From contig DYOF01000002.1 of NCBI GenBank assembly GCA_020720665.1, positions 1 to 62,376 of the forward strand: a stretch of 62,376 bases of DNA, read 5' to 3'. Both the position numbers and the translations under genes were made by a program. Shown here in pieces: positions 1,641 through 62,376 of this stretch. How positions within the stretch are numbered: position 1 is the first letter of the stretch; every line of letters begins with the position of its first letter. Under the pieces are notes generated by a model. That model was not told the DNA's origin, did not search any database, and saw nothing but the letters and a program-made list of their open reading frames with translations. This DNA comes from Acetofilamentum sp. Lineage in GTDB: Bacteria; Bacteroidota; Bacteroidia; Bacteroidales; JAADGE01.

Positions 1641-2567
1641 CTAAATATCTTCTGATTTTTTTGCAAACCGTTCATAATTTACCAACCAAGCGGCTGCATT
1701 TTTAACATATCTTCCCGTTCCTGCATGATCCCATGATATATATAAGCGTGTAAAACCACCGTCTAAGATTAATCGTTTACCGTCTTTTTCATATGTAGCC
1801 GTAACTAAATTGCTTTCATGACCGTAAATTAAAGGTTCAAGTACTTGTTGTTTATCTTGTAATGTAGCAATTGTAACACCTTCATATACATATTCTAAAC
1901 CGGTTGTAATTAAATGTCCGGGTGTGAGTCCGGTGTTTTTTTTGTTGTCATTTAAACCTACGACTTCGTTGCCGGGTAAATTCCCTAACATTTTAACCCC
2001 GATTAAATAATCTGAAACATAGTTAGCATCAGCATAATACGGTTCGTTATCACCCCAAATATAAACCCCTTTTCCGCTGTCGAAAAACGCTTTAATAACT
2101 TTTAAATGTTCTTCATTCAATTTTTGAGTATAACTTGAAATAATCCATAGCTGACATGCTTTTTTTAATGATTTTTCGAGTTCTTCGGGAGAGGGCGGGT
2201 TATCAATCCATCTGTAAACCGAAAAACCTTTTTCTTGTAATGCGGCTTTAGGCAGTGAAAAGTCAAAACCTTCGCCGGTATATAAATGTAGAACGGCAAC
2301 TGTTTCGCCTTGAAAAGCTCCGTCAACGGCTAAATCGTATTGATTTCCCTGAGCATTTCCGTGTCTGTCTGATTCAACTTTAATTTTTTTAACCGAGCCT
2401 GAAAGTGCATCTGTTTGTTCTTCATATACCGCATTTTTTGATGCACATTCATTATAAACTTGTGCCTGTAATTCTCCCATAAAAAAGAAGAACAATAAAA
2501 TAAAAGCAATTACGAAGGTCAAATAAATGCCTATCGTTTGTTTTGAGTTTGATTCGTAGTTTTTCAT
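1641..2567 (-). CDS. Hypothetical membrane-anchored/exported protein
   Basis: 308 aa with an N-terminal hydrophobic anchor (IGIYLTFVIAFILLFFFF). No family recognised. It ends 38 nt upstream of the FGE-domain gene, so the two are probably co-transcribed. Leader element copy A lies directly upstream. Confidence 0.6.
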   Translation of the reverse strand: MKNYESNSKQTIGIYLTFVIAFILLFFFFMGELQAQVYNECASKNAVYEEQTDALSGSVKKIKVESDRHGNAQGNQYDLAVDGAFQGETVAVLHLYTGEGFDFSLPKAALQEKGFSVYRWIDNPPSPEELEKSLKKACQLWIISSYTQKLNEEHLKVIKAFFDSGKGVYIWGDNEPYYADANYVSDYLIGVKMLGNLPGNEVVGLNDNKKNTGLTPGHLITTGLEYVYEGVTIATLQDKQQVLEPLIYGHESNLVTATYEKDGKRLILDGGFTRLYISWDHAGTGRYVKNAAAWLVNYERFAKKSEDI

Positions 2568-2585
2568 GTGTCTAAATATTTTTAA

Positions 2586-2740
2586 CTAATTAATAATCTG
2601 TAAATTGAATGCTTATGCTTATTTATAATCCTTGTTCTTTCCTGCACATAGGAACACTTCACTTTCTGTTAAATGTAATTGAGGTATTCTGTTAGTCATG
2701 CTCCTTTATGTAAAAAACTGTCTTACATGGGTGTTTCATA
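2586..2740 (-). repeat. Conserved ~170-nt leader element, copy A
   Basis: Shares long identical runs with copy B, read on the minus strand: aggagcatgactaacagaatacc (23 nt), tgaagtgttcctatgtgcag (20 nt) and cagattattaatta. The tttagacaNATGAAA end abuts the start codon at 2567. Confidence 0.85.
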
Positions 2741-36051: not shown

Positions 36052-37827
36052 TTAAAAATACATTAAACTTAATATCGTAATAGTAACAATCATATATAAT
36101 AAAGTCAAGGGTGCACCTATCCGGAAAAAATCTTTAAATTTATATCCTCCCGGTCCGTATATCATTAAATTGGTTTGATAACCTATGGGTGTCATAAAAT
36201 TAGCTGCAGCAGCATATGCAACAACTAAAATAAAAGGCATAACATCAACATTTAATTCTAATGCTAAGCTAAGTGATACCGGGAAAATTACGGCAACAGC
36301 AGCTTTATTTGTAATATAAGCTGCTAAAATTGTAGTTATCATATAAATTCCGGTAAGTATTCCGACTTTTCCGAGCGGTTTAAAAACAATAATTATTCCC
36401 TCAGAAAATAATTCGGCTACACCGGTTTTCATCATAGCCATTCCGAGTGCCAATGATAGTGCAATTATTATAATCAGGTCATAATCAATACTTTTAACTA
36501 AATCTTTTGGTCTTGTAATTTTCATTATTACAAGTCCGGTAAGTAAAACCATTAAGCCGTTAAAAAATTTAATAAGACCGATTGTTGACAGCAAAATTAC
36601 TAAAATTGTACCGCCTACTAAAAACATTGTTCTTAAAAAACCGAGCCGTCTTATTTCTTTTACTCTTGATGTTAAGAAAAAATCAACAGTATCTTTTAAT
36701 CTGGCTTCAAAATATGTCCCTGCAAGCAAAAGAACAGAGTCGCCTGCTTTTAATTCGGTATTTCCTAATTTCCCGGCAAAAGTTTCACCGTCACGATTTA
36801 CTGCTATAGCGGTTGCATCATATTTAGCTCTGAAATTAACTTCTTTTATCGTTTTTCCGGCAATTGAAGAATTATGTGAAATAACAACTTCAATAACTTC
36901 TGTATTTTTTTTTCTTGAAAACATCCCTACGGAAGGAATTTCAATTCCGTTTTTTGATTTTACGAAATCAGCTATTGATTCTGTTGAGCCTGTAAATAAC
37001 AAAATATCTTCTTCCATTAAAATGGTATCATTCGGAACTGCTGTAATGCGAATATCTTCACGTAATATTTCAAACAAAAACAGTCCTTCTAAATTTCTTA
37101 AACCGGCTTCTGCAATGGTTTTCCCTATTAAATCGCTGTTTGTTTTTATTCGCCCTTCAACAATAAATTTTCGTTCTAAAGCATTGATTTTATCTATCGG
37201 ATTTTTATTTTCGGGTAATAGTTTTTGACCGAAAAATAAAATATAGGCAATTCCTATAACAATCATTGGAACACCCACGGCCGAAAAATCAAAAATATCT
37301 AATTGCGGTAAATTGGGAATTATTTTCTGGTCGGTTACTAAGCCGTTAACGATTAAATTTGTTGATGTTCCGATTAAAGTTGCACAGCCTCCGAGAATTG
37401 CAGCAAAAGACAAGGGAATCATCAATTTTGAAACCGGAGCTTTTAATCTGTCGGCTGTTGTGTGTACGTAGGGCATTAATAAAGCCACAAGAGGAGTATT
37501 GTTCAAAAAAGCCGATAAGAATGCTACGACAAACATCATTCTTGCCGTAAAATTCCGGATTGATTTGGAGCGTGTAAAGAAGTAATCAAAAAAGATATCT
37601 AAAACAGATGTTCTTCTGTAAATATCACCTAATAACAATAACATAACAATAACGGCAATTTGCTCATTAGCAAAACCGTCAAGAATTTCTGACGGGTCTA
37701 ATACATTTGTTATTCCTAAAACAATAACGGCAATAATAAATGTCATAGTCGGTCCTAAAATCTCTTTATATAAAGAGACAATTAAAAAAAGAAGTACTGC
37801 TATAACAATTATTGCATCAAAAGTCAT
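36052..37827 (-). CDS. SLC13/DASS-family anion permease with two central TrkA-C domains (probable sulfate transporter)
   Basis: 591 aa, polytopic. Two TrkA-C-like segments (GKTIAEAGLRNLEGLFLFEI..., GKTIKEVNFRAKYDATAIAV...). Operon context with cysDN. Confidence 0.75.
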   Translation of the reverse strand: MTFDAIIVIAVLLFLIVSLYKEILGPTMTFIIAVIVLGITNVLDPSEILDGFANEQIAVIVMLLLLGDIYRRTSVLDIFFDYFFTRSKSIRNFTARMMFVVAFLSAFLNNTPLVALLMPYVHTTADRLKAPVSKLMIPLSFAAILGGCATLIGTSTNLIVNGLVTDQKIIPNLPQLDIFDFSAVGVPMIVIGIAYILFFGQKLLPENKNPIDKINALERKFIVEGRIKTNSDLIGKTIAEAGLRNLEGLFLFEILREDIRITAVPNDTILMEEDILLFTGSTESIADFVKSKNGIEIPSVGMFSRKKNTEVIEVVISHNSSIAGKTIKEVNFRAKYDATAIAVNRDGETFAGKLGNTELKAGDSVLLLAGTYFEARLKDTVDFFLTSRVKEIRRLGFLRTMFLVGGTILVILLSTIGLIKFFNGLMVLLTGLVIMKITRPKDLVKSIDYDLIIIIALSLALGMAMMKTGVAELFSEGIIIVFKPLGKVGILTGIYMITTILAAYITNKAAVAVIFPVSLSLALELNVDVMPFILVVAYAAAANFMTPIGYQTNLMIYGPGGYKFKDFFRIGAPLTLLYMIVTITILSLMYF

Positions 37828-37859
37828 CTAATCATTTTTGAAACGAAATTGATAATTCA

Positions 37860-39149
37860 TTATTGGCGTTCAACAATCATACCTGCTCCTACAGTTTCAT
37901 TCGTAACTTCATCAACCAAAATGAAACTGCCTGTATTACGGTTTTTTCGGTATGAATCAAAAAACAAAGTTTGTGTCGTGCGGAGTTGAATACGAGCAAT
38001 ATCATTCATTTTAACCGTTTTATCTTCATAATTACGTTCAAGAGTATTGATATCCATTTTAAATTTCACCTCTTGAATCATACATTTTACATCTTTAGTT
38101 GTATGTCTTAAACTATATTTTCCTCTGACTTGGAGCGGTCGTTCATTGAACCAACTAATCATCGCAGTAATATCTTGGCTTTGAAGCGGAATATTATTTG
38201 CTTTAACAATCATATCTCCTCTGCTGACATCAATATCATCAGTAATTGTAATAGAAACGGATTGCGGAGCAAATGCCGTTTCTAAACTTTCTGTCAAAGT
38301 ATCAATTGATTGTATTGATGATTCAAATCCTGACGGTAAAATTTTAATTCGGTCACCAACTCTAAAAATACCTCCGTCTATTCTGCCGCCGTATCCTCTG
38401 TAATCATGGTATTCATCAGTTTGGGGTCTGATTACAAATTGAACAGGAAATCGGGCATCTACATGATTATGGTCACCTGATATGTAAACATTTTCTAAAA
38501 GATGTAACAAGGTTGCACCTTCATACCATTTCATATTTTTTGAGCGTTCTACAACATTGTCGCCCACTAATGCACTGATAGGAATAAAACTGATATCTTT
38601 TGTATCTAATTTGGGAGCAAAACCCATAAATTGTTTTTTTATTTTATCATAAACGTCTTCTTCGTAAGCTACTAAATCCATTTTATTAATACAAACAACA
38701 AGATGAGGTATTTGCAATAATGATGCAATATATGCATGGCGAAGTGTTTGCTCTACTACACCGTTTCTGGCATCAATTAAAATGATAGCCAAATTGGCAG
38801 TGGATGCACCGGTAACCATATTTCGAGTATATTGAATATGTCCGGGAGTATCTGCAATAATAAATTTTCTTTTAGGAGTTGCAAAATATCTGTATGCAAC
38901 ATCAATGGTAATTCCTTGTTCTCTTTCGGCTCTTAATCCGTCAGTTAACAATGCCAAATCGGCTTCTTCTTTTCCTTTATTTTTACTGGCTCGTTCTATG
39001 GCTTCAATTTGATCTTCAAAAATGGATTTACTGTCATAAAGTAATCGACCGATTAATGTACTTTTACCGTCATCAACACTTCCTGCTGTTGTAAAACGTA
39101 AAAGTTCCATGTCAAGATACCCGTTTGAATCGTATGTATTGTTTTCCAT
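37860..39149 (-). CDS. cysN: Sulfate adenylyltransferase subunit 1 (GTPase), without a fused APS kinase
   Basis: 429 aa with GSVDDGKST, DTPGH and NKMD. Too short to include a CysC domain. Confidence 0.93.
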   Translation of the reverse strand: MENNTYDSNGYLDMELLRFTTAGSVDDGKSTLIGRLLYDSKSIFEDQIEAIERASKNKGKEEADLALLTDGLRAEREQGITIDVAYRYFATPKRKFIIADTPGHIQYTRNMVTGASTANLAIILIDARNGVVEQTLRHAYIASLLQIPHLVVCINKMDLVAYEEDVYDKIKKQFMGFAPKLDTKDISFIPISALVGDNVVERSKNMKWYEGATLLHLLENVYISGDHNHVDARFPVQFVIRPQTDEYHDYRGYGGRIDGGIFRVGDRIKILPSGFESSIQSIDTLTESLETAFAPQSVSITITDDIDVSRGDMIVKANNIPLQSQDITAMISWFNERPLQVRGKYSLRHTTKDVKCMIQEVKFKMDINTLERNYEDKTVKMNDIARIQLRTTQTLFFDSYRKNRNTGSFILVDEVTNETVGAGMIVERQ

Positions 39150-39169
39150 TATTTTGTTTTTGCTTGGGT

Positions 39170-40075
39170 TTAAAAATATCCTTCTTTTTTTCTGTCTTCC
39201 ATTGCTGTTTCAGAGCGTTTATCGTCAAACCTCTTTCCTCTTTCGGTTGTACGTTCGGCTGCTGTTTCCTCAATAATATCTTTTACGTTATCTGCTTTAG
39301 AACGGGTTAAACCGGTATTGGTTATATCGCCTATTGTTCTGCATCTTACATCTAAAATTTCTGCCTTTTCTTCAGGTTTCAATTTCATAAAAGGTGCCGT
39401 TGATAACAATACGCCGTCACGATTAAACACTTCACGTTTGTGAGTAAAATACAGACTCGGAATTTCAATATCTTCCATGTAAATGTATTGCCATACATCT
39501 AATTCTGTCCAATTACTTAGCGGAAACACTCTAAAATGTTCTCCCATTCTTTTTTTCCCGTTAAATATATTCCACAATTCGGGTCTTTGATTTTTCGGAT
39601 CCCATTGTCCGAACTCATCTCTGTGTGAAAAAAATCGTTCTTTTGCTCGAGCTTTTTCTTCGTCTCTTCTGCCACCCCCTATAGCTGCATCAAATTTATA
39701 TTCTTCTATGGCATCTAACAATGTAGTTGTTTGCAACACATTTCTGCTGGCATTATAACCGGTTTCTTCTTGAACTCTGCCGGCATCAATAGTTTTTTGC
39801 ACGGAACCGATATATAATTTTACACCGTGTTTTTTAACTAAATTGTCTCTAAAAATAAGTGTTTCTTCAAAATTATGTCCGGTGTCAATATGTAACAAAG
39901 GAATAGGTACTTTTGCAGGGAAAAAAGCTTTTCCGGCTAAATGAAACATTACGATTGAATCCTTACCTCCCGAAAATAGTATTACCGGATTATCAAATTG
40001 AGCAGCTACTTCTCTGAATACAAAAATTGATTCGGCTTCTAACTCTCTTAAATGATTAAGATTATATTTACTCAT
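39170..40075 (-). CDS. cysD: Sulfate adenylyltransferase subunit 2
   Basis: 301 aa with a PAPS-reductase-like fold (LFSGGKDS) and the conserved C-terminus KKEGYF. Confidence 0.93.
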   Translation of the reverse strand: MSKYNLNHLRELEAESIFVFREVAAQFDNPVILFSGGKDSIVMFHLAGKAFFPAKVPIPLLHIDTGHNFEETLIFRDNLVKKHGVKLYIGSVQKTIDAGRVQEETGYNASRNVLQTTTLLDAIEEYKFDAAIGGGRRDEEKARAKERFFSHRDEFGQWDPKNQRPELWNIFNGKKRMGEHFRVFPLSNWTELDVWQYIYMEDIEIPSLYFTHKREVFNRDGVLLSTAPFMKLKPEEKAEILDVRCRTIGDITNTGLTRSKADNVKDIIEETAAERTTERGKRFDDKRSETAMEDRKKEGYF

Positions 40076-40087
40076 ATTCCAAATTGT

Positions 40088-40822
40088 TTATTTTATTCTT
40101 TTTATATTAAAACTTAGCGTTTTTTGGTCTATATGGAGACCGCATTCTTTACTGTCTTTATTTTCCCACCACCATCTGCCGGCTCTGATATCTTCTCCGG
40201 GATTGACGGCTCGTGTACAAGGAGCACAACCTATACTCAAAAAACCTTGATCGTGTAAATTATTATACGGAACATTATATTTTTTAAGGTATAACAATAC
40301 TTCGTTCAAAGTCCACTTTGTTAACGGATTAAATTTTATTACATTGAAACTGTCATTAGGTTCCAATAATGCTAATTCTGTACGGGTTACTGATTGTTCC
40401 GCTCTTAAACCCGTTATCCATAAATCTGCTGACTTTAATGCTCTTGCCAGGGGGTAAACTTTGCGAATATTGCAACACTCTTTTCTATTTTCTATCGAAT
40501 CATAAAAACTATAAACACCTTTTTCGGAAACCATTTTTTCAACTTGCTCTTTATCGGGAAAATAAACTTTTATTTTTTGTTCATATTTTTCATTCGTTTT
40601 ATTCCATATTTTATAGGTTTCTTCAAACATTCGCCCGGTATCTAATGTAAAAATTTCAATCTGAATTTTATTTCTGAAAATTAAATCAGTTAACACTTGA
40701 TCCTCTTGCCCGAAACTTGTTGAAAATGCTATTTTATCTTTGTATTTTTCAGCCAAAAATTTAAGTTGATTCTCTATTGACAAATTTTGAATTTGTTCTG
40801 TCAGTTTGTTCAGTTCTTCCAT
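40088..40822 (-). CDS. cysH: Adenylylsulfate (APS)/PAPS reductase of the Fe-S (APS-reductase) type
   Basis: 244 aa. Has the cysteine pairs ECCNIRK and GCAPCT plus the catalytic KECGLH tail. Confidence 0.85.
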   Translation of the reverse strand: MEELNKLTEQIQNLSIENQLKFLAEKYKDKIAFSTSFGQEDQVLTDLIFRNKIQIEIFTLDTGRMFEETYKIWNKTNEKYEQKIKVYFPDKEQVEKMVSEKGVYSFYDSIENRKECCNIRKVYPLARALKSADLWITGLRAEQSVTRTELALLEPNDSFNVIKFNPLTKWTLNEVLLYLKKYNVPYNNLHDQGFLSIGCAPCTRAVNPGEDIRAGRWWWENKDSKECGLHIDQKTLSFNIKRIK

Positions 40823-50464: not shown

Positions 50465-51250
50465 TTACTTCAACCAACGTCTGAGCCACATTTCGGCTGC
50501 ATAAATCTTCCGAGTGGTCCAACTGTTAATCGGTACATTTAAACCGGTTTTTATTAATAAAGTTCCTTTAGGCTGACCTTCATAAACATTTACCTCAAGA
50601 GTTGAATTTGTGTAATCCGGACTCAAAAAATTGCCGATGACATAATTTGCTTCAAAATTAAAAAACATAAAATTAAAGCCTAAAATTGCCGCTAAATTAC
50701 TTTTTCTAAGCATTTCCTTATAATTTGCAGGCTGAGTTGTAGAGGATGTTGCCGAATAACTTACATTATCGGTTTTACTTAAGAATAAATTATAACTGTA
50801 TGAAACACCTCCGTATAAATACTTTTGACTTTCATAAAACTTTTTTCCGTATTTAATATAAACCGGAACTGTTACCTGCGACACTCGATAAGTTTCTTTT
50901 AATGTATAACTTGGTATTGAAGCTGTATAATAATTTGCAGCAATACCATACATTTTATATTCTAATCCTATACTTATCCCGGCATTATTACTTTTTAAAT
51001 CATGACTATACATTAAACTTCCGTAATAACCCGGTACATAATTAATATTAAAACTCGTATCCGGAAATAATTGTAAATGATCTAGCCCGTTTTTTGATAA
51101 TAACATAAAATTTAATAAAGTATCCGGTTGAGGAGATAAAACGGAATGATTTGCTCCTATTTTTATTGAAAAATAATCATACTCACTATCCCACTGTGAA
51201 AATGAATAAGTAGTGATTAAAATAAATATTATTATTATTGACTTTTTCAT
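50465..51250 (-). CDS. Outer-membrane beta-barrel (porin-family/PorT-like) protein
   Basis: 261 aa with a signal peptide and alternating aromatic/hydrophilic beta-strand pattern (YSYNLF, ANYVIGNF). Confidence 0.55.
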   Translation of the reverse strand: MKKSIIIIFILITTYSFSQWDSEYDYFSIKIGANHSVLSPQPDTLLNFMLLSKNGLDHLQLFPDTSFNINYVPGYYGSLMYSHDLKSNNAGISIGLEYKMYGIAANYYTASIPSYTLKETYRVSQVTVPVYIKYGKKFYESQKYLYGGVSYSYNLFLSKTDNVSYSATSSTTQPANYKEMLRKSNLAAILGFNFMFFNFEANYVIGNFLSPDYTNSTLEVNVYEGQPKGTLLIKTGLNVPINSWTTRKIYAAEMWLRRWLK

Positions 51251-51307
51251 CGGTCTTGCTTTTTAGTTTCTTTAATATAAACTTTTATTGAAGTATAATT
51301 GATATAA

Positions 51308-52933
51308 TTAAGGCCTGTAGTGCCAAAAATCATTAAAATCTAATTCCGGCACACCTGCCCAACCGCTACCCACATACGCTCTATAGTCATTATCACTTAT
51401 TTTAATGCCTACACCCACTGCTTCATATCTGGGTTTTCCTACCTGTACACCGTCAATTTTCCCGAAATCAGCTCTTTGTTCCCATTGATTGGTGAACGGG
51501 TTATATCTGTAAAAATCAGATAAAGCCTCACCGGAAGAATTTTTACCTAAGCCTACATAGCCCATTTCACCTAATGCAAACCCCACAGCCTCCACACGGG
51601 CTTCGCCCGGAAACGGTGTACGTTGCGTCCAACTCAAATAATCGCCTGTAGTTTGTCGGCACATCCACAAATCATTTTTATATACACCGGCTTCATCTCT
51701 TCCGCATGCAACATAAACATTGCTTCCTAAGGTAAAACAAACGGCTTCGGTTCGTTTACCGCCCGGGAAATTACCAATTTTTGTCCACGTTCCTCTTTCA
51801 TGATATAAACTTTTTTCCGTAGGATCATATTTGTAAACATATTCAACAGGCTCATTGCTGTAATCGGTTGTTCCTAAGGCTACATAGCCTATTCCGTTTA
51901 ATGAAAAAGCAATTGAATTTTCTGTAATAGTTCCGGGAAAATCAGCTCGTGATGTACCTTCTGTAATATTTTCCCATGTTCCCCACTCTCCTAAAGGTTT
52001 GTGTAAAACATCCGTCAGTTCTAATCTGTAAAAATTTACATTACCGGCATCGCCGTCATTGGTAATACCGAGTCCTAAAAATAAATAATCTGATTCTTGA
52101 TTATTTTCTAATTTAATATCTTCAAGAACAAAACAAACTGCATTTGTAAAATTAACCTGCTCTCCTACAGTAAAATTTTTGTACGGGTTATCCCATGAAT
52201 TACTTACCGGGTCGTATCTGTATAGCTCAATTTGATTACTCATAGGGGCTTCATCATGTCCTTGTAATATAAACATATATCCGTTGTATGAAAAAGATGT
52301 TGCACCCCAATAATAATTATCGTCAAAAGCTGCCGGAGTATCGGTCATACCGCCTCCTACCCACAAATCAACCGGGCTTTTTGTATTAATTTCTAAATCT
52401 TTTTGATTGTATGCAATATCTTTATATACCGGTAAACCTCCCACAAAACGACCGGTAACAACGAATGACCGCACATAATAGGTTTCTTCATAATGCAATC
52501 CTAAACTGCTTTGAAATTCTTTTCCTGCAAATAAATCTTCACCGGTTAAAAAACTTTCAGGTGCTTCTGTTCCTTTAAAATGATAAGAAGAATTTTGTTT
52601 TAAACGTTCTAATAAATTTATTTTACTCACAGAATCATATCCGCAAACTACCGGATTTGGATTTTTTGAATAAACATGACCGTATATTAAAATACTGTCT
52701 TTCAACATTCCGTTGTCATATTTTTTTACATAAGTAATATTTTCTTGTATAACAGCATAATTATCAGTAACAATAATTAAACTGTCCGGCGTACCGCTGA
52801 TATATTTGACTTTACCGTCCGGTGTAATAAACGTACCGCCGTCAAACTCTCTCGTAAAGGCATACGGATTCTCATCATATTTACAAGATGATATCAGTAA
52901 AAACGCTAACAGAAAATAAGTAATTTTTTTCAT
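51308..52933 (-). CDS. Kelch-like beta-propeller lipoprotein
   Basis: 541 aa with a lipobox (LISSC). Repeated blades of the form (D/N)(F/L)W.Y.P..N.W....FPG..R..AV.F.....YVGLG. Confidence 0.7.
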   Translation of the reverse strand: MKKITYFLLAFLLISSCKYDENPYAFTREFDGGTFITPDGKVKYISGTPDSLIIVTDNYAVIQENITYVKKYDNGMLKDSILIYGHVYSKNPNPVVCGYDSVSKINLLERLKQNSSYHFKGTEAPESFLTGEDLFAGKEFQSSLGLHYEETYYVRSFVVTGRFVGGLPVYKDIAYNQKDLEINTKSPVDLWVGGGMTDTPAAFDDNYYWGATSFSYNGYMFILQGHDEAPMSNQIELYRYDPVSNSWDNPYKNFTVGEQVNFTNAVCFVLEDIKLENNQESDYLFLGLGITNDGDAGNVNFYRLELTDVLHKPLGEWGTWENITEGTSRADFPGTITENSIAFSLNGIGYVALGTTDYSNEPVEYVYKYDPTEKSLYHERGTWTKIGNFPGGKRTEAVCFTLGSNVYVACGRDEAGVYKNDLWMCRQTTGDYLSWTQRTPFPGEARVEAVGFALGEMGYVGLGKNSSGEALSDFYRYNPFTNQWEQRADFGKIDGVQVGKPRYEAVGVGIKISDNDYRAYVGSGWAGVPELDFNDFWHYRP

Positions 52934-52950
52934 CTGTCTAAAAATTTATA

Positions 52951-53104
52951 ATTAATTAATAATCTGCAAATTGAATTGATATTACTATTAATAATGTTTT
53001 TTTCTCTGCACATAGGAACACTTCAATTATGCACTAAACATAATTACGGTATTCTGTTAGTCATGCTCCTGTGAGCTAAAAATTGTCTTACATTGGTGTT
53101 TTAT
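52951..53104 (-). repeat. Conserved ~170-nt leader element, copy B
   Basis: Collinear with copy A and ends at the Kelch-lipoprotein ATG (52933). See the copy A evidence. Confidence 0.85.
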
Positions 53105-60124: not shown

Positions 60125-61561
60125 TTGGAAATAAAAAACAAAATATTAAACGAATTTTTTAAAATAATACTATTCGGTTTCTCATCATACATCTTGGGTT
60201 TAATACGTTTTTCAATTCCCGGTTTAGAAAGTACTACAAGTGATTTTAGGGAAATACCGCTATTGATAAGTATTTTTCATGTTTCAAATCCGATTTCATT
60301 AATCATAATGAGTTTGATTACTTCATTAGATTTTATAACTCAACATACATTTACTCAAACCTTTATCTCACATGCTTTTGCACTAACAGTATCATGGTAC
60401 ATCTTCAAATTTATTAAAACAAAAAAAAGGTCTTACTACATTTCCGGTTTTATTTGGCTCAGTTATGTGACCATATATTATTTTATTTTTTTAGTTCCCG
60501 CGATTATTATTTCTTATGAAATATCAGATATATATATCGACACTCCGTTTTGGCTCTCATTCCAAAAGTTTATATTTTCACTCCGTTTTGAAATTATTGC
60601 AACAAGTCTTATTACTTCATTATACTTAATACAATTAAAAATAAGGAAAGAACTAATCAAGCAAAAAGATTATTTAGAAACAGCCGTTAGAGAAAGAACC
60701 GATGAACTTGAAAGCGCCAATGAAGAATTAGTATCAATTAATGAAGAATTAATATCGGCAAACGAAACAATGTCAGATAAAAATGAAATTATAAATAAAC
60801 AAAATATAGACTTACAAAACACTTTAAACAATTTAAAAGAAGCACAAATACAACTTCTTCATGCTGAAAAAATGGCTTCCTTAGGAACTTTAACTGCAGG
60901 GGTTGCACATGAAATTAATAATCCGTTAAATTTTATATTGGGTTCCTATCATGCCTTAGAAGAATATTTTAAAAATTACGGAAGTCAAGACACAAAAAAA
61001 ACAACTTTTTTATTGGAGAGTATAAAAACAGGTATTGAAAGAACTTCAGAAATTGTGAAAGGCTTAAATCAATTCAGCAGAAGTAACAAAACCCTTGATG
61101 AAGATTGCGAACTTCAACCAATAATAGAGAACTGTTTGGTGATGTTAAATAACCCCTTCCGACATAGGATAAACATAATTAAAAATTATGACCCTGAAAT
61201 AAATTATATTAAAGGAAACATAGGAAAACTCCATCAAGTTTTTATGAATATCATTTTCAATGCAATTCAAGCAATTGATGATGAAGGAGAAATAATTATA
61301 ACTACTAAAAAAATAAATACGAATGTTCATATTGAAATTTCCGATAACGGTTGCGGAATAGATAAAAACAATTTACCCAAAATTGCCGACCCGTTTTTCA
61401 CAACAAAAGACTCCGGTAAAGGTATCGGATTAGGTTTATCCATTTCATATTCCATTATCAAAGAACATAAAGGAGAAATTTCTTTTGAATCTGAGCTGAA
61501 TAAAGGCACAAAAGTACTGATTGTAATACCTGTTAATTTAAATTATGACCCCAAAAATTAA
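60125..61561 (+). CDS. Membrane sensor histidine kinase
   Basis: 478 aa. Polytopic N-terminus, coiled coil, H-box (AHEINNPLNF), N-box (NAIQA) and G-boxes (DNGCGI, GKGIGLGLS). The TTG start is uncertain. Confidence 0.85.
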   Translation: MEIKNKILNEFFKIILFGFSSYILGLIRFSIPGLESTTSDFREIPLLISIFHVSNPISLIIMSLITSLDFITQHTFTQTFISHAFALTVSWYIFKFIKTKKRSYYISGFIWLSYVTIYYFIFLVPAIIISYEISDIYIDTPFWLSFQKFIFSLRFEIIATSLITSLYLIQLKIRKELIKQKDYLETAVRERTDELESANEELVSINEELISANETMSDKNEIINKQNIDLQNTLNNLKEAQIQLLHAEKMASLGTLTAGVAHEINNPLNFILGSYHALEEYFKNYGSQDTKKTTFLLESIKTGIERTSEIVKGLNQFSRSNKTLDEDCELQPIIENCLVMLNNPFRHRINIIKNYDPEINYIKGNIGKLHQVFMNIIFNAIQAIDDEGEIIITTKKINTNVHIEISDNGCGIDKNNLPKIADPFFTTKDSGKGIGLGLSISYSIIKEHKGEISFESELNKGTKVLIVIPVNLNYDPKN

Positions 61562-61913
61562 AATCTTATACGTAGATGATGAACCTATTAATCTTCAACT
61601 ATTCGAAATAATTTTTAATAGTCAATATGAAATATTAACTGCAAAAAACGGTATAGAAGGACTTTCTGTTTTAGAAAAATCACCCGATATTAAAATTATA
61701 CTAAGTGATATGAAAATGCCGATAATGTCCGGCTTAAATTTCATTCAAAAAGCCCATGAATTATACCCCGATAAAAAATATTTTATAGTAACCGGATTTG
61801 AAGCAACTCCAGAAATTTTAAATGCTGTTGATTCCGAACTGATTGTTAAATATCTAAGTAAACCATTTATTATCAATGAAATAAAAACTGAAATTGCAAA
61901 TGCATTAAAATAA
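61545..61913 (+). CDS. Stand-alone response-regulator receiver protein (CheY-like)
   Basis: 122 aa with LYVDDEP, SDMKMP and SKP. No output domain. Overlaps the kinase gene by 17 nt. Confidence 0.88.
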   Translation: MTPKIKILYVDDEPINLQLFEIIFNSQYEILTAKNGIEGLSVLEKSPDIKIILSDMKMPIMSGLNFIQKAHELYPDKKYFIVTGFEATPEILNAVDSELIVKYLSKPFIINEIKTEIANALK

Positions 61914-62100
61914 GTATCTCAGTTTTTTTCTATAATTCATTTTTATCATTTAAGCTCTGCAACTCTTTTACATAGTATCAACGAACCACAAATAATTAGT
62001 CCTGTTCTGTATTTTAAAAATAATTCAAATATTTAATCTTGTTTACAACAAATATATTTTTAAATTTATATTCTGTATTTTATAATATCTAAATCATATT

Positions 62101-62267
62101 AAACACCCATAATAACAATGTTTTCACACATAGAGCATGGCTGACAGAATTCCATAATTGCGTTTCGTTCAAAAAAAAATATTCTTATGTGCAGGAAAAA
62201 CAAGCAAAATTAATAATGATAAGCATTCAATTAACAAATTCTTAACTAACTATAAAATTTTAAACAG
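62101..62267 (+). repeat. Conserved ~170-nt leader element, copy C
   Basis: Collinear with A and B: aaacacccat, gagcatggctgacagaattcc, ttatgtgcaggaaaaacaag and ataagcattcaatt. It ends in aaacagATG at 62268-62270. Confidence 0.8.
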
Positions 62268-62269
62268 AT

Positions 62270-62376
62270 GAAACACCCATGATAAACAAGTTTAACACAC
62301 AAGGACATGACTAAACAAATCACCTTGCATAATTGCGTAGAGTTTTCAGATGTTCCTATCTGCGGGGAAAAACAAG
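62270..62376 (+). repeat. Conserved leader element, copy D (truncated by the window edge)
   Basis: gaaacacccatg, ggacatgactaaac, cataattgcgt and gttcctatctgcggggaaaaacaag. It starts directly at the ATG that terminates copy C. Confidence 0.75.

What the first reader, a model, noticed from the sequence alone, without database searches (positions are those of the whole stretch)
2568..2740. Unassigned ~170-nt conserved element filling the whole 5' leader of an exported-protein operon (copy A of four)
Read on the minus strand, the element starts at ATGAAACACCCATG. It continues through AGGAGCATGACTAACAGAATACC, then GAAGTGTTCCTATGTGCAGGAAAGAACAAGG, then ATAAGCATTCAATTTACAGATTATTAATTA. It ends TTTAGACAC directly on the start codon of the 308-aa gene, which is followed by the FGE-sulfatase gene. 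The same collinear blocks recur at 52951-53104 and twice at 62101-62376, always in the same orientation relative to the downstream ATG. The distance from AAACACC to the ATG is 167-169 nt in copies A, B and C; copy D is cut off by the window edge. Identical runs of 20-23 nt in an AT-rich intergenic background are not expected by chance. Two mutually exclusive pairings are visible. UUCCU (2639-2643 on plus) can form a local hairpin UUCCU-AUGUGC-AGGAA. Alternatively the 8-mer GUGUUCCU can pair with the upstream AGGAGCAU (plus 2698-2705). In copy C one G:C pair of that long-range stem becomes A:U, but another pair is lost, so covariation support is weak. This could be a cis-regulatory leader RNA (switch or attenuator), or a regulator-binding module that carries its own promoter.
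Basis: seen in the sequence. Interest (0 to 1): 0.82.

Follow-up and report, generated by a model that had tools for sequence, protein, structure and literature searches.

The report
Small repeat inserted at start codons
The repeated ~170-base "leader" is a species-specific insertion that has landed exactly on the ATGAAA start of at least three unrelated envelope-protein genes and rebuilt the start codon each time; it is not a conserved regulatory RNA.

Summary
Four collinear copies of a ~166-nt non-coding element lie directly on a downstream ATG: A and B on the minus strand, and C and D in tandem on the plus strand. None is expected by chance.

The "conserved leader RNA" reading does not hold. 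Orthologous loci in related Bacteroidales MAGs are empty at all three sites. There the native promoter and leader run straight into ATGAAA or ATGGAA. In the window the same native sequence is still present, immediately upstream of the element.

Each copy sits between two copies of the hexamer ATGAAA. The upstream hexamer has decayed to ATAAAA in B and ATTAAA in C. The element has no terminal inverted repeats, no ORF, no Rfam match, no folding energy beyond shuffled controls and no covariation. It was not found in any public DNA collection searched outside this species.

Assemblies break inside the copies, and one copy is a recombinant mosaic between strains 99.8% identical.

My best reading is a TIR-less, non-autonomous insertion element. 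It targets ATGAAA in one orientation and regenerates the start codon, giving each gene a new AT-rich, unstructured leader and perhaps a promoter. How it moves, and whether it regulates anything, is unresolved. Only four copies could be reached.

The parts
2568..2733 (-). Copy A core (166 nt, CACCCATG...TTTAGACAC), inserted between the native leader and the 308-aa gene
   Evidence: The site is empty in orthologous loci L009 and L012, and in P0003's upstream translation.
2734..2739 (-). Upstream ATGAAA hexamer of copy A. It is the old start codon, now heading a 15-codon uORF.
   Evidence: Native sequence homologous to the relatives' promoter and leader ends exactly here.
2562..2567 (-). Downstream ATGAAA hexamer of copy A, the working start of the 308-aa gene (1641-2567)
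52934..53098 (-). Copy B core (165 nt), upstream of the 541-aa Kelch lipoprotein and OMP operon
   Evidence: The site is empty in syntenic L077.
53099..53104 (-). Upstream hexamer of copy B, decayed to ATAAAA
52928..52933 (-). Downstream ATGAAA hexamer of copy B, the start of the Kelch lipoprotein gene
   Evidence: The gene begins ATGAAAAAAATTACTTATTT in both the window and the empty orthologue.
62098..62103 (+). Upstream hexamer of copy C, decayed to ATTAAA
62104..62267 (+). Copy C core (164 nt), first unit of the tandem pair upstream of the alpha-2-macroglobulin gene
   Evidence: The site is empty in L077 and L078.
62268..62273 (+). ATGAAA hexamer shared by the end of C and the beginning of D
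62274..62376 (+). Copy D core, first 103 nt (cut by the window end). It is complete in L005:10731-10895 and is followed by the A2M gene, which starts ATGAAACAC.
   Evidence: The window ends at the point where strains differ in D's 3' half.
52967..52974 (-). TCAATTTG inside copy B, a near match to the Bacteroidota -7 box TAnnTTTG, 33 nt before the ATG. The same position reads TCAATTTA in A (2601-2608) and TCAATTAA in C. A promoter role is inferred, not shown.
   Evidence: Native TAnnTTTG boxes lie 26-73 nt before the ATG of several window genes.
62039..62068 (+). Native A2M promoter-like signal (TTG, 19 nt, TAAATTTA). It is conserved in the empty orthologous loci and now lies upstream of the C-D pair.

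Best explanation
The element is a lineage-specific, non-coding, non-autonomous insertion element of about 166 bp with no terminal inverted repeats.

Shown:
- It has integrated, always in the same orientation relative to the gene, at the hexamer ATGAAA (start codon plus a Lys codon) of at least three unrelated genes.
- After integration it is flanked by ATGAAA on both sides. The downstream hexamer serves as the gene's start, so the ORF is untouched.
- The upstream hexamer is the orphaned old start. It either heads a short uORF (A, D) or has lost its G (B, C).
- A second insertion at the regenerated hexamer explains the C-D tandem.
- The native promoter and leader are pushed about 170 nt upstream (about 340 nt for A2M).
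- The gene acquires a new leader that is AT-rich and no more folded than shuffled sequence.

Inferred:
- The conserved 3' module (AATTTGCAGATTATTAATTAATTA.AAATTTTTAGACAG) may supply a Bacteroidota-type -7 box about 33 nt before the ATG, together with a favourable initiation context. That would make the element a portable promoter/leader cassette.
- Mobility is probably provided in trans by a site-specific, non-DDE enzyme encoded elsewhere in the genome. Candidates are an IS110/IS1111-type RNA-guided DEDD recombinase or an HUH single-strand transposase. This follows from the lack of inverted ends, the sequence-specific target and the fixed orientation.
- The exclusive location at gene starts can be explained by target specificity plus loss of insertions at internal ATGAAA sites.
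For: 1. Empty sites at all three loci.
- 308-aa gene: L012, L009 and P0003 read ...AAGGAAA...TTATT|ATGGAAAAC. The window has the homologous ...AAGGAAAATTATTAATT immediately upstream of the element.
- Kelch gene: syntenic L077 reads ...GTATTAAAC|ATGAAAAAAATTACTTATTT. The window reads ...AATAAACAC|ATAAAA[165 nt]ATGAAAAAAATTACTTATTT.
- A2M gene: L077 and L078 read ...TAAATTTAAC...|ATGAAAAAC. The window keeps the same TTG-N19-TAAATTTA signal upstream of C-D.

2. The flanking hexamers are ATGAAA/ATGAAA for A and D, ATAAAA/ATGAAA for B and ATTAAA/ATGAAA for C.

3. About 80 kb from three relatives contains no copy (nhmmer; L077 sites read directly). Two pattern scans found no true copy in GTDB species genomes, JGI metagenome contigs or IMG/VR. 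blastn found nothing in plasmids or phages.

4. It is non-coding: no frame is conserved across copies.

5. It has no terminal inverted repeats: first 50 nt against reverse-complemented last 50 nt score the same as shuffles.

6. It behaves as a repeat in assemblies. Logan contigs start inside A at the same base in different runs. Contigs end in C/D. The window itself ends inside D.

7. Copies recombine. Strains that are 99.79% identical over 21 kb carry different 3' halves of D.

8. The window has 7 gene starts with ATGAAA (8 with A2M), 11 other intergenic ATGAAA sites and 132 internal coding ones. All three insertion sites are gene starts: (8/151)^3 = 1.5e-4 if insertion were random over all ATGAAA sites.
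Against:
- No autonomous partner, transposase or recombinase was seen in the window.
- No excision or empty-allele polymorphism within the species was seen, so mobility is inferred from comparison between species only.
- The copies are 64-76% identical. That is far more diverged than a recent burst, yet they keep identical 20-23 nt blocks. This could instead mean selection for a host function.
- Among non-disruptive ATGAAA sites the start-site bias is not significant: (8/19)^3 = 0.075.
- B and C/D lie 9 kb apart in opposite orientations, which argues against a strictly replication-strand-biased IS200/IS605-type mechanism.
- No conserved subterminal hairpins were found.
- The -7-like box is good only in B and in the sister-strain D.
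Confidence: 0.72

Rival explanations
1. A host-selected portable promoter or operator cassette: a "putative mobile promoter". In this reading the conserved blocks are binding sites for a regulator or sigma factor, they tie the downstream envelope genes into one regulon, and the element persists because of that function. This overlaps with the best explanation and differs in what maintains the blocks.
For: - Identical 20-23 nt blocks survive in copies that are otherwise 25-35% diverged.
- All downstream genes encode membrane or exported proteins.
- A and B are 83.6% identical over 73 nt within -150..-50 upstream of non-homologous genes. That meets the operational criterion for putative mobile promoters in PMC3575422.
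- TTCC-N8-GGAA and TGT-N3-ACA dyads and a -7-like box are present.
Against: - No regulator was identified.
- The neighbouring response regulator is a bare receiver domain.
- The HTH gene upstream of A is syntenic in relatives that lack the element.
- The blocks occur nowhere else in the window.
- A sister strain carries a substitution inside the TTCCTATG block.
- Three loci are too few to define a regulon.
Confidence: 0.2
2. A cis-regulatory leader RNA (riboswitch, attenuator or thermosensor) that toggles between the local UUCCU/AGGAA hairpin and the long-range AGGAGCAU/GUGUUCCU helix.
For: Both helices can be drawn in about 90% of cells across six sequences. The long-range helix is the only feature in the RNAalifold consensus and in the centroid fold of A. 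The element lies on the sense strand between the native promoter and the ORF, so it is probably transcribed.
Against: - It is absent from orthologous genes.
- Folding energies equal or are worse than dinucleotide shuffles on the sense strand; C has z = +2.44.
- There are zero compensatory changes.
- There is no terminator or expression platform.
- There is no Rfam match, even at E up to 10.
- The tandem C-D arrangement is not expected for a switch.
Confidence: 0.05
3. An ancestral leader that was precisely deleted in the relatives by recombination between the flanking ATGAAA repeats, rather than gained in this lineage.
For: Six-base direct repeats could mediate precise deletion. The copies are old enough to be 25-35% diverged.
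Against: This needs independent precise losses at three loci in every relative examined: L009, L012 and P0003 for A, L077 for B, and L077 and L078 for C/D. It also needs total absence of the family from about 80 kb of relatives and from all collections scanned.
Confidence: 0.03

Closest known systems
Bacterial MITEs and other small interspersed repeats that carry promoters (Correia/CREE, ERIC, REPIN, BOX; listed in PMC3575422)
   Same: Short (about 170 bp), non-coding and multi-copy. It lies in gene-proximal intergenic DNA, is flanked by a short direct repeat, breaks short-read assemblies and may add promoter or leader sequence to neighbouring genes.
   Different: It has no terminal inverted repeats and no stable hairpin. 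The target is a specific hexamer that is also a start codon. All copies share one orientation relative to the gene, and the ORF start is regenerated. A relative (L009) carries classical TIR MITEs in the same intergenic region, and they look quite different.
Putative mobile promoters (Matus-Garcia, Nijveen and van Passel 2012; commentary PMC3575422)
   Same: Highly similar upstream sequence in front of non-homologous genes within one genome. A and B pass the criterion of at least 80% identity over at least 50 nt in -150..-50. Neither an Rfam nor an IS assignment exists, and the way of moving is unknown.
   Different: That class is an operational catalogue with no defined boundaries or target. 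Here the insertion boundaries, the target hexamer and the empty sites are resolved to the base.
IS110/IS1111-family insertion sequences, for example IS900
   Same: TIR-less (IS110 type), sequence-specific and orientation-specific insertion with little or no target duplication. The IS900 target motif CATGNNNNNNTCTCCTT (PMC8141618) is, from my own knowledge of the older IS900 literature, the reverse complement of an RBS plus ATG. That makes it a precedent for insertion at translation-start signals. Mini-IS carrying only the ends can be moved in trans (PMC11187229).
   Different: No DEDD transposase, seekRNA/bridge-RNA region or autonomous copy was seen. The element is about 10 times shorter. The six-base flanking repeat is longer than the usual 2-nt core. 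Membership is untested.
IS200/IS605-derived PATEs (HUH single-strand transposition)
   Same: No inverted ends, no true duplication, insertion next to a short specific sequence in one orientation, and small size.
   Different: The defining subterminal hairpins were not found. Neighbouring copies lie in opposite orientations 9 kb apart.

Membership tests
MITE (DDE-transposon-derived miniature element) | Terminal inverted repeats | tested here: not met
   For every copy, local alignment of the first 50 nt against the reverse-complemented last 50 nt scores 10-12. Shuffles average 11-13.
MITE (DDE-transposon-derived miniature element) | Short direct repeat of the target flanking the element | tested here: met
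   ATGAAA flanks A and D perfectly, and flanks B and C at 5 of 6 bases. Empty orthologous sites carry a single ATGAAA or ATGGAA.
MITE (DDE-transposon-derived miniature element) | Small, non-coding, multi-copy within a genome | tested here: met
   The core is 164-166 nt, no frame is conserved, and there are four copies in 62 kb. The Logan contig break inside A hints at a further copy or variant.
MITE (DDE-transposon-derived miniature element) | Ends shared with an autonomous IS in the same or a related genome | not testable with these tools
   The rest of the genome (GCA_020719425.1, GCA_022729925.1) could not be scanned. No transposase is present in the window.
Cis-regulatory RNA (riboswitch or attenuator) | Conserved upstream of orthologous genes across species | tested here: not met
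   It is absent upstream of the orthologues of all three genes.
Cis-regulatory RNA (riboswitch or attenuator) | Conserved secondary structure supported by covariation or by excess stability | tested here: not met
   Sense-strand z-scores range from -1.23 to +2.44. There are 0 compensatory pairs. Power is low with four independent copies.
Cis-regulatory RNA (riboswitch or attenuator) | Match to a curated family, or an expression platform such as a terminator or a sequestered start | tested here: not met
   Rfam gives nothing at gathering or at E up to 10. There are 0 terminator-like sites.
Putative mobile promoter (PMP) | At least 80% identity over at least 50 nt within -150..-50 of non-homologous genes in one genome | tested here: met
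   A against B: 83.6% over 73 nt. The downstream proteins are unrelated.
Putative mobile promoter (PMP) | Actual promoter activity | not testable with these tools
   There is only a -7-like box, T[CT]AATTTG, 33 nt before the ATG in B and in the sister-strain D.
IS110/IS1111 family (or a mini derivative) | DEDD transposase and a non-coding region that encodes a guide (bridge or seek) RNA | not testable with these tools
IS110/IS1111 family (or a mini derivative) | Sequence-specific, orientation-specific insertion without terminal inverted repeats | tested here: met
IS200/IS605 PATE | Subterminal imperfect hairpins at both ends | tested here: not met
   No conserved hairpins were found. Folding of either strand is not better than shuffles, except weakly for one copy's antisense strand (z = -1.7).

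The most novel reading that the evidence does not exclude
A previously undescribed family of TIR-less mobile cassettes that home to the translational start ATGAAA and recreate it on insertion. A gene's promoter and leader could then be swapped or stacked without harming the ORF. Mobility would come from a site-specific (possibly RNA-guided) recombinase encoded elsewhere in the genome, and copies would exchange modules by recombination.
Probability: 0.35. Interest if true: 0.7.

Novelty: new variant of a known kind. Interest (0 to 1): 0.5.

Why it matters
If the start-codon targeting is confirmed genome-wide, this would be a clean natural case of mobile DNA that rewires 5' regulatory regions while leaving coding sequences intact.

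It would also flag a site-specific insertion activity with a six-base target, in an uncultured sulfidic-biofilm Bacteroidales lineage, that may be worth finding.

In practical terms, it warns that "conserved leader" signals seen within a single genome can be insertions. Orthologous empty sites should be checked before a riboswitch is proposed.

Tried and rejected
1. Known RNA family: Rfam at gathering threshold on the whole window, and at E up to 10 on each copy region, gave nothing meaningful.

3. Small protein or leader peptide: six-frame translations share no ORF.

4. Classical MITE: no terminal inverted repeats.

5. More copies through DNA pattern scans:
- The two-block pattern gave 0 hits in genome contigs, metagenome contigs and viral contigs.
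- The relaxed three-block pattern gave two hits in a fermentation metagenome. nhmmer shows these are chance matches (E about 0.1).

6. More copies through relatives: 60 loci around PyrD from GTDB genomes are at most 67% identical. They share no synteny for the flanking genes checked and contain no element.

7. blastn against plasmids and phages: no match.

8. Extending the left end of the contig through the DUF302 protein: the protein is not on record.

9. tRNA-linked integration: there are no tRNA genes in the window.

10. Neighbouring regulators as partners: the HTH gene upstream of A is syntenic in element-free relatives, and the response regulator upstream of C has no output domain.

11. 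Faster evolution of B between strains: its 2 SNPs match a local 2.4-kb SNP cluster that covers the whole downstream operon, so they say nothing about constraint.

Full report
**Observation**

Read on the strand of the downstream gene, four collinear copies of one element are present.
- Copy A: core at window 2568-2733 (minus strand).
- Copy B: core at 52934-53098 (minus strand).
- Copy C: core at 62104-62267 (plus strand).
- Copy D: from 62274 to the window end (plus strand).

A two-block pattern derived from the copies hits exactly these four places, against 0.00 expected from shuffles. A profile search gives E = 5e-48 to 2e-23 for the four copies and nothing better than E = 5 elsewhere in the window.

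It is 169 nt in the complete D.

Overall identity between copies is only 64-76%. Several blocks are nevertheless invariant or nearly so: AAACACC, GAGCATGACTAACAGAAT, TTCCTATGTGCAG, ATTCAATTTRCAGATTATTAATTA and TTTAGACAS directly before the ATG.

**Context**

The window is AT-rich (31.6% GC). It comes from an uncultured Bacteroidales-like organism.
- Near-identical contigs (99.7-99.9% DNA identity) occur in JGI samples 3300000234 and 3300042874, and a further contig carrying C and part of D comes from 3300000230.
- The same is true of NCBI MAGs GCA_020719425.1 and GCA_022729925.1 and of several Logan runs.

The downstream genes are unrelated to each other.
- Copy A precedes a 308-aa membrane-anchored protein with no Pfam family, followed by an FGE-sulfatase-domain protein and a DUF302 protein.
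- Copy B precedes a 541-aa Kelch-repeat lipoprotein followed by a beta-barrel OMP.
- The C-D pair precedes an 1852-aa alpha-2-macroglobulin. This was seen on contig L005, which extends past the window end.

The window holds no transposase, integrase or tRNA gene.

**The decisive result: all three sites are empty in relatives**

The 308-aa protein belongs to a well-conserved Bacteroidota family. I fetched its locus from two related MAGs with 84-86% amino-acid identity.
- Gene order is conserved: UvrD, DUF4290, EPSP synthase, a 320-331-aa protein, then the 308-aa homologue.
- The upstream sequence reads ...CATCTG..ACAAAC.ATAAGGAAA...TTATT|ATGGAAAAC with no element.
- In the window the homologous native stretch, ...catctgataattacaaactataaggaaaattattaatt, lies immediately upstream of the element.
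- The closest relative (P0003, 87% identity) has an upstream in-frame translation ...ETLKLFIM. This matches the same native leader, so that site is empty too.

For copy B, the syntenic locus L077 (grpE-dnaJ divergent from the Kelch gene, then FloA and ClpS) reads ...GTATTAAAC|ATGAAAAAAATTACTTATTT. The window reads ...AATAAACAC|ATAAAA[165 nt]ATGAAAAAAATTACTTATTT.

For C-D, the alpha-2-macroglobulin genes of L077 and of a closer relative, L078 (75% identity), are preceded by CTTG-N19/20-TAAATTTA and then about 39 to 46 nt before ATGAAAAAC. The window keeps the same signal and follows it with C and then D.

When the element is removed in silico, the window aligns cleanly with the empty loci at the B and A2M sites.

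The element is therefore an insertion in this lineage. It sits between an intact native promoter/leader and the ORF.

**Anatomy of the insertion**

Every copy lies between two copies of a hexamer.
- A: ATGAAA[core]ATGAAA
- B: ATAAAA[core]ATGAAA
- C and D: ATTAAA[core C]ATGAAA[core D]ATGAAA

The downstream hexamer is the gene's start codon plus a Lys codon. The upstream hexamer is the displaced original start.
- In A it opens a 15-codon uORF.
- In D it opens a 4-codon uORF.
- In B and C the G of the ATG has been lost.

The core has no terminal inverted repeats and no ORF shared between copies. A short motif, T[AT]A[GA]ACA[GA], recurs three times in direct orientation: near the 5' end, in the second block and at the 3' terminus.

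The tandem is what one expects if the regenerated ATGAAA is itself a target.

**Repeat behaviour and recombination**

Short-read assemblies break in the element.
- Logan contigs from different runs begin at the same base inside A.
- Other contigs stop in C or D.
- The window itself stops inside D.

The break inside A needs a 30-mer shared with some other sequence, and copy B does not supply it. At least one more copy, or a recombinant variant, probably exists in these samples. This is an inference.

Two MAGs that are 99.79% identical over 21 kb carry different 3' halves of D.
- In L005 the 3' half of D equals that of C.
- In L076 and L008 it is a distinct sequence whose last 38 nt match B at 37 of 38 positions.

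The window ends exactly at this switch point. Either gene conversion between copies is ongoing, or one MAG collapsed the repeat. The two independent contigs with the distinct version argue that at least that version is real.

**The RNA hypothesis**

- Rfam gives nothing, at curated thresholds on the whole window or at E up to 10 on each copy.
- The minimum free energy of A equals that of its shuffles (z = +0.61).
- Across the copies, sense-strand z-scores are +0.39, -1.23, +2.44, +1.02 and +0.66. The leader is no more structured than shuffles, and C clearly less so.
- RNAalifold keeps only the AGGAGCAU/GUGUUCCU helix, with a covariation term of 0.
- Explicit counts for that helix and for the UUCCU/AGGAA hairpin show about 90% pairing but no double-sided change. 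The values equal those of column shuffles.
- No terminator-like site is present.

With four independent sequences the covariation test has little power. Absence from the orthologues and the lack of stability weigh more heavily against a switch.

**Distribution**

- The element was not found in 185,579 species-representative genomes, in the JGI metagenome contig set or in IMG/VR when scanned with a two-block pattern.
- A relaxed three-block pattern produced only two chance matches in the metagenome contig set, the only collection scanned with it.
- It is absent from plasmid and phage collections.
- It is absent from about 80 kb of three related MAGs and from 60 more distant loci.
- The window's own organism appears not to be in the DNA collections, so copy number in the genome is unknown.

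**Why always at gene starts?**

The window has these ATGAAA sites on either strand:

| Class | Count |
|---|---|
| Gene starts | 7 (8 with A2M) |
| Other intergenic | 11 |
| Internal to coding sequence | 132 |

If insertions hit ATGAAA at random, three out of three at gene starts has a probability of about 1.5e-4. If internal insertions are removed by selection, it is 0.075. Target specificity plus purifying selection is therefore enough, and no extra homing to genes needs to be assumed.

The exact junction at all three sites cannot be explained without sequence-specific targeting.

Five other ATGAAA-start genes in the window carry no element.

**Likely consequence for expression (inferred)**

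Native TAnnTTTG boxes lie 26-73 nt before the ATG of several window genes. The organism therefore appears to use Bacteroidota-type promoters and short leaders.

The best-conserved 3' module of the element places T[CT]AATTTG 33 nt before the ATG in B and in the sister-strain D. A has TCAATTTA and C has TCAATTAA.

Two outcomes are possible.
- The element brings a weak or moderate promoter of its own.
- Transcription from the displaced native promoter reads through a 200-400-nt unstructured leader.

Which one applies, and whether the 5' blocks are operator sites or recombinase sites, cannot be decided from sequence.

**Comparison with known systems**

Operationally the A/B pair qualifies as a "putative mobile promoter": 83.6% identity over 73 nt within -150..-50 of non-homologous genes (criterion in PMC3575422).

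It behaves like a MITE in size, copy number and flanking direct repeat. It fails the defining inverted-repeat test. A relative carries true TIR MITEs in the very same intergenic region, which makes the contrast clear.

The combination of no inverted ends, a specific target and a fixed orientation is what IS110/IS1111-type elements show.
- The IS900 target motif is CATGNNNNNNTCTCCTT (PMC8141618). From my own knowledge of the older IS900 literature, this corresponds to a ribosome-binding site plus start codon on the other strand.
- Mini-IS of that family can be mobilised in trans (PMC11187229).

IS200/IS605-type elements show similar traits, but their hallmark hairpins are missing here.

No defining protein or guide RNA could be tested, so I do not file the element in any family.

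**Verdict**

- The sequence observation is confirmed.
- The "conserved regulatory leader RNA" interpretation is not supported.
- The "portable module with its own promoter" alternative remains open.
- The best-supported account is a lineage-specific, TIR-less, non-autonomous insertion element that targets ATGAAA and regenerates the start codon.
- It is a new variant of a known kind of thing: small interspersed or mobile-promoter repeats.
- Interest is moderate. It would rise if a genome-wide census confirmed start-codon homing and identified the enzyme responsible.

Noticed in passing
L009:9380-9604 and L009:9694-9912: A related MAG carries two classical MITE-like elements of about 220 bp in the intergenic region upstream of the same 308-aa gene. 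They have 15-17-nt terminal inverted repeats (TTAACCCGCATAATTCA / TGAATAATGCGGGTTAA). Contigs of that MAG also break near there (L010, L011).
   Followed up: partly
window 50594-53015: 28 of the 37 SNPs between the window and a sister strain (99.79% identical over 21 kb) fall in this 2.4-kb stretch. It covers the OMP gene, the Kelch lipoprotein gene and the 3' part of element B. This suggests an imported recombination tract or diversifying selection on these surface proteins. The cluster ends inside the element.
   Followed up: partly
window 62363-62376; L005:10819-10895; L076:487-563 (minus strand); L008:2350-2415: The 3' half of copy D exists in two versions among near-identical strains. One is identical to C's 3' half. 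The other is a distinct sequence whose last 38 nt match B at 37 of 38 positions. The window contig ends exactly at the switch point.
   Followed up: yes
window 53099-53104 and 62098-62103: In B and C, two of the three copies that lie directly downstream of a native promoter, the displaced original start codon has lost its G (ATA, ATT), while the adjacent AAACACC is intact. This may reflect selection against initiation at the old start, or it may be chance.
   Followed up: no
L005:10896-10904 (just beyond the window end): The alpha-2-macroglobulin gene starts ATGAAACAC (MKH) in this organism but ATGAAAAAC (MKN) in two relatives. The changed base makes the first 9 nt identical to the 5' end of the element. 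This could be coincidence or a trace of the insertion or recombination event.
   Followed up: partly
window 1641-2567: The 308-aa protein downstream of copy A belongs to a large, highly conserved Bacteroidota family (1762 hits at E <= 1e-5, many at 65-87% identity). It has an N-terminal membrane anchor and no Pfam or NCBIfam model. Here it sits next to a GldK/GldJ-like FGE-sulfatase-domain protein, but that neighbour is missing in the two related MAGs checked.
   Followed up: no
window 60125-61913: A histidine kinase gene overlaps by 17 nt a stand-alone receiver-domain gene (122 aa, no output domain), directly upstream of the C-D pair. This gene pair is missing at the corresponding place in relative L077, where a peptidase M1 gene precedes the alpha-2-macroglobulin gene.
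   Followed up: no
window 36052-40822: A sulfate-assimilation cluster is present: two PAPS-reductase-family genes (cysD/cysH-like), a GTPase of the CysN/EF-Tu type, and a CitMHS/TrkA_C transporter. This fits the sulfidic-biofilm origin I infer from the sample names (from memory, not checked).
   Followed up: no
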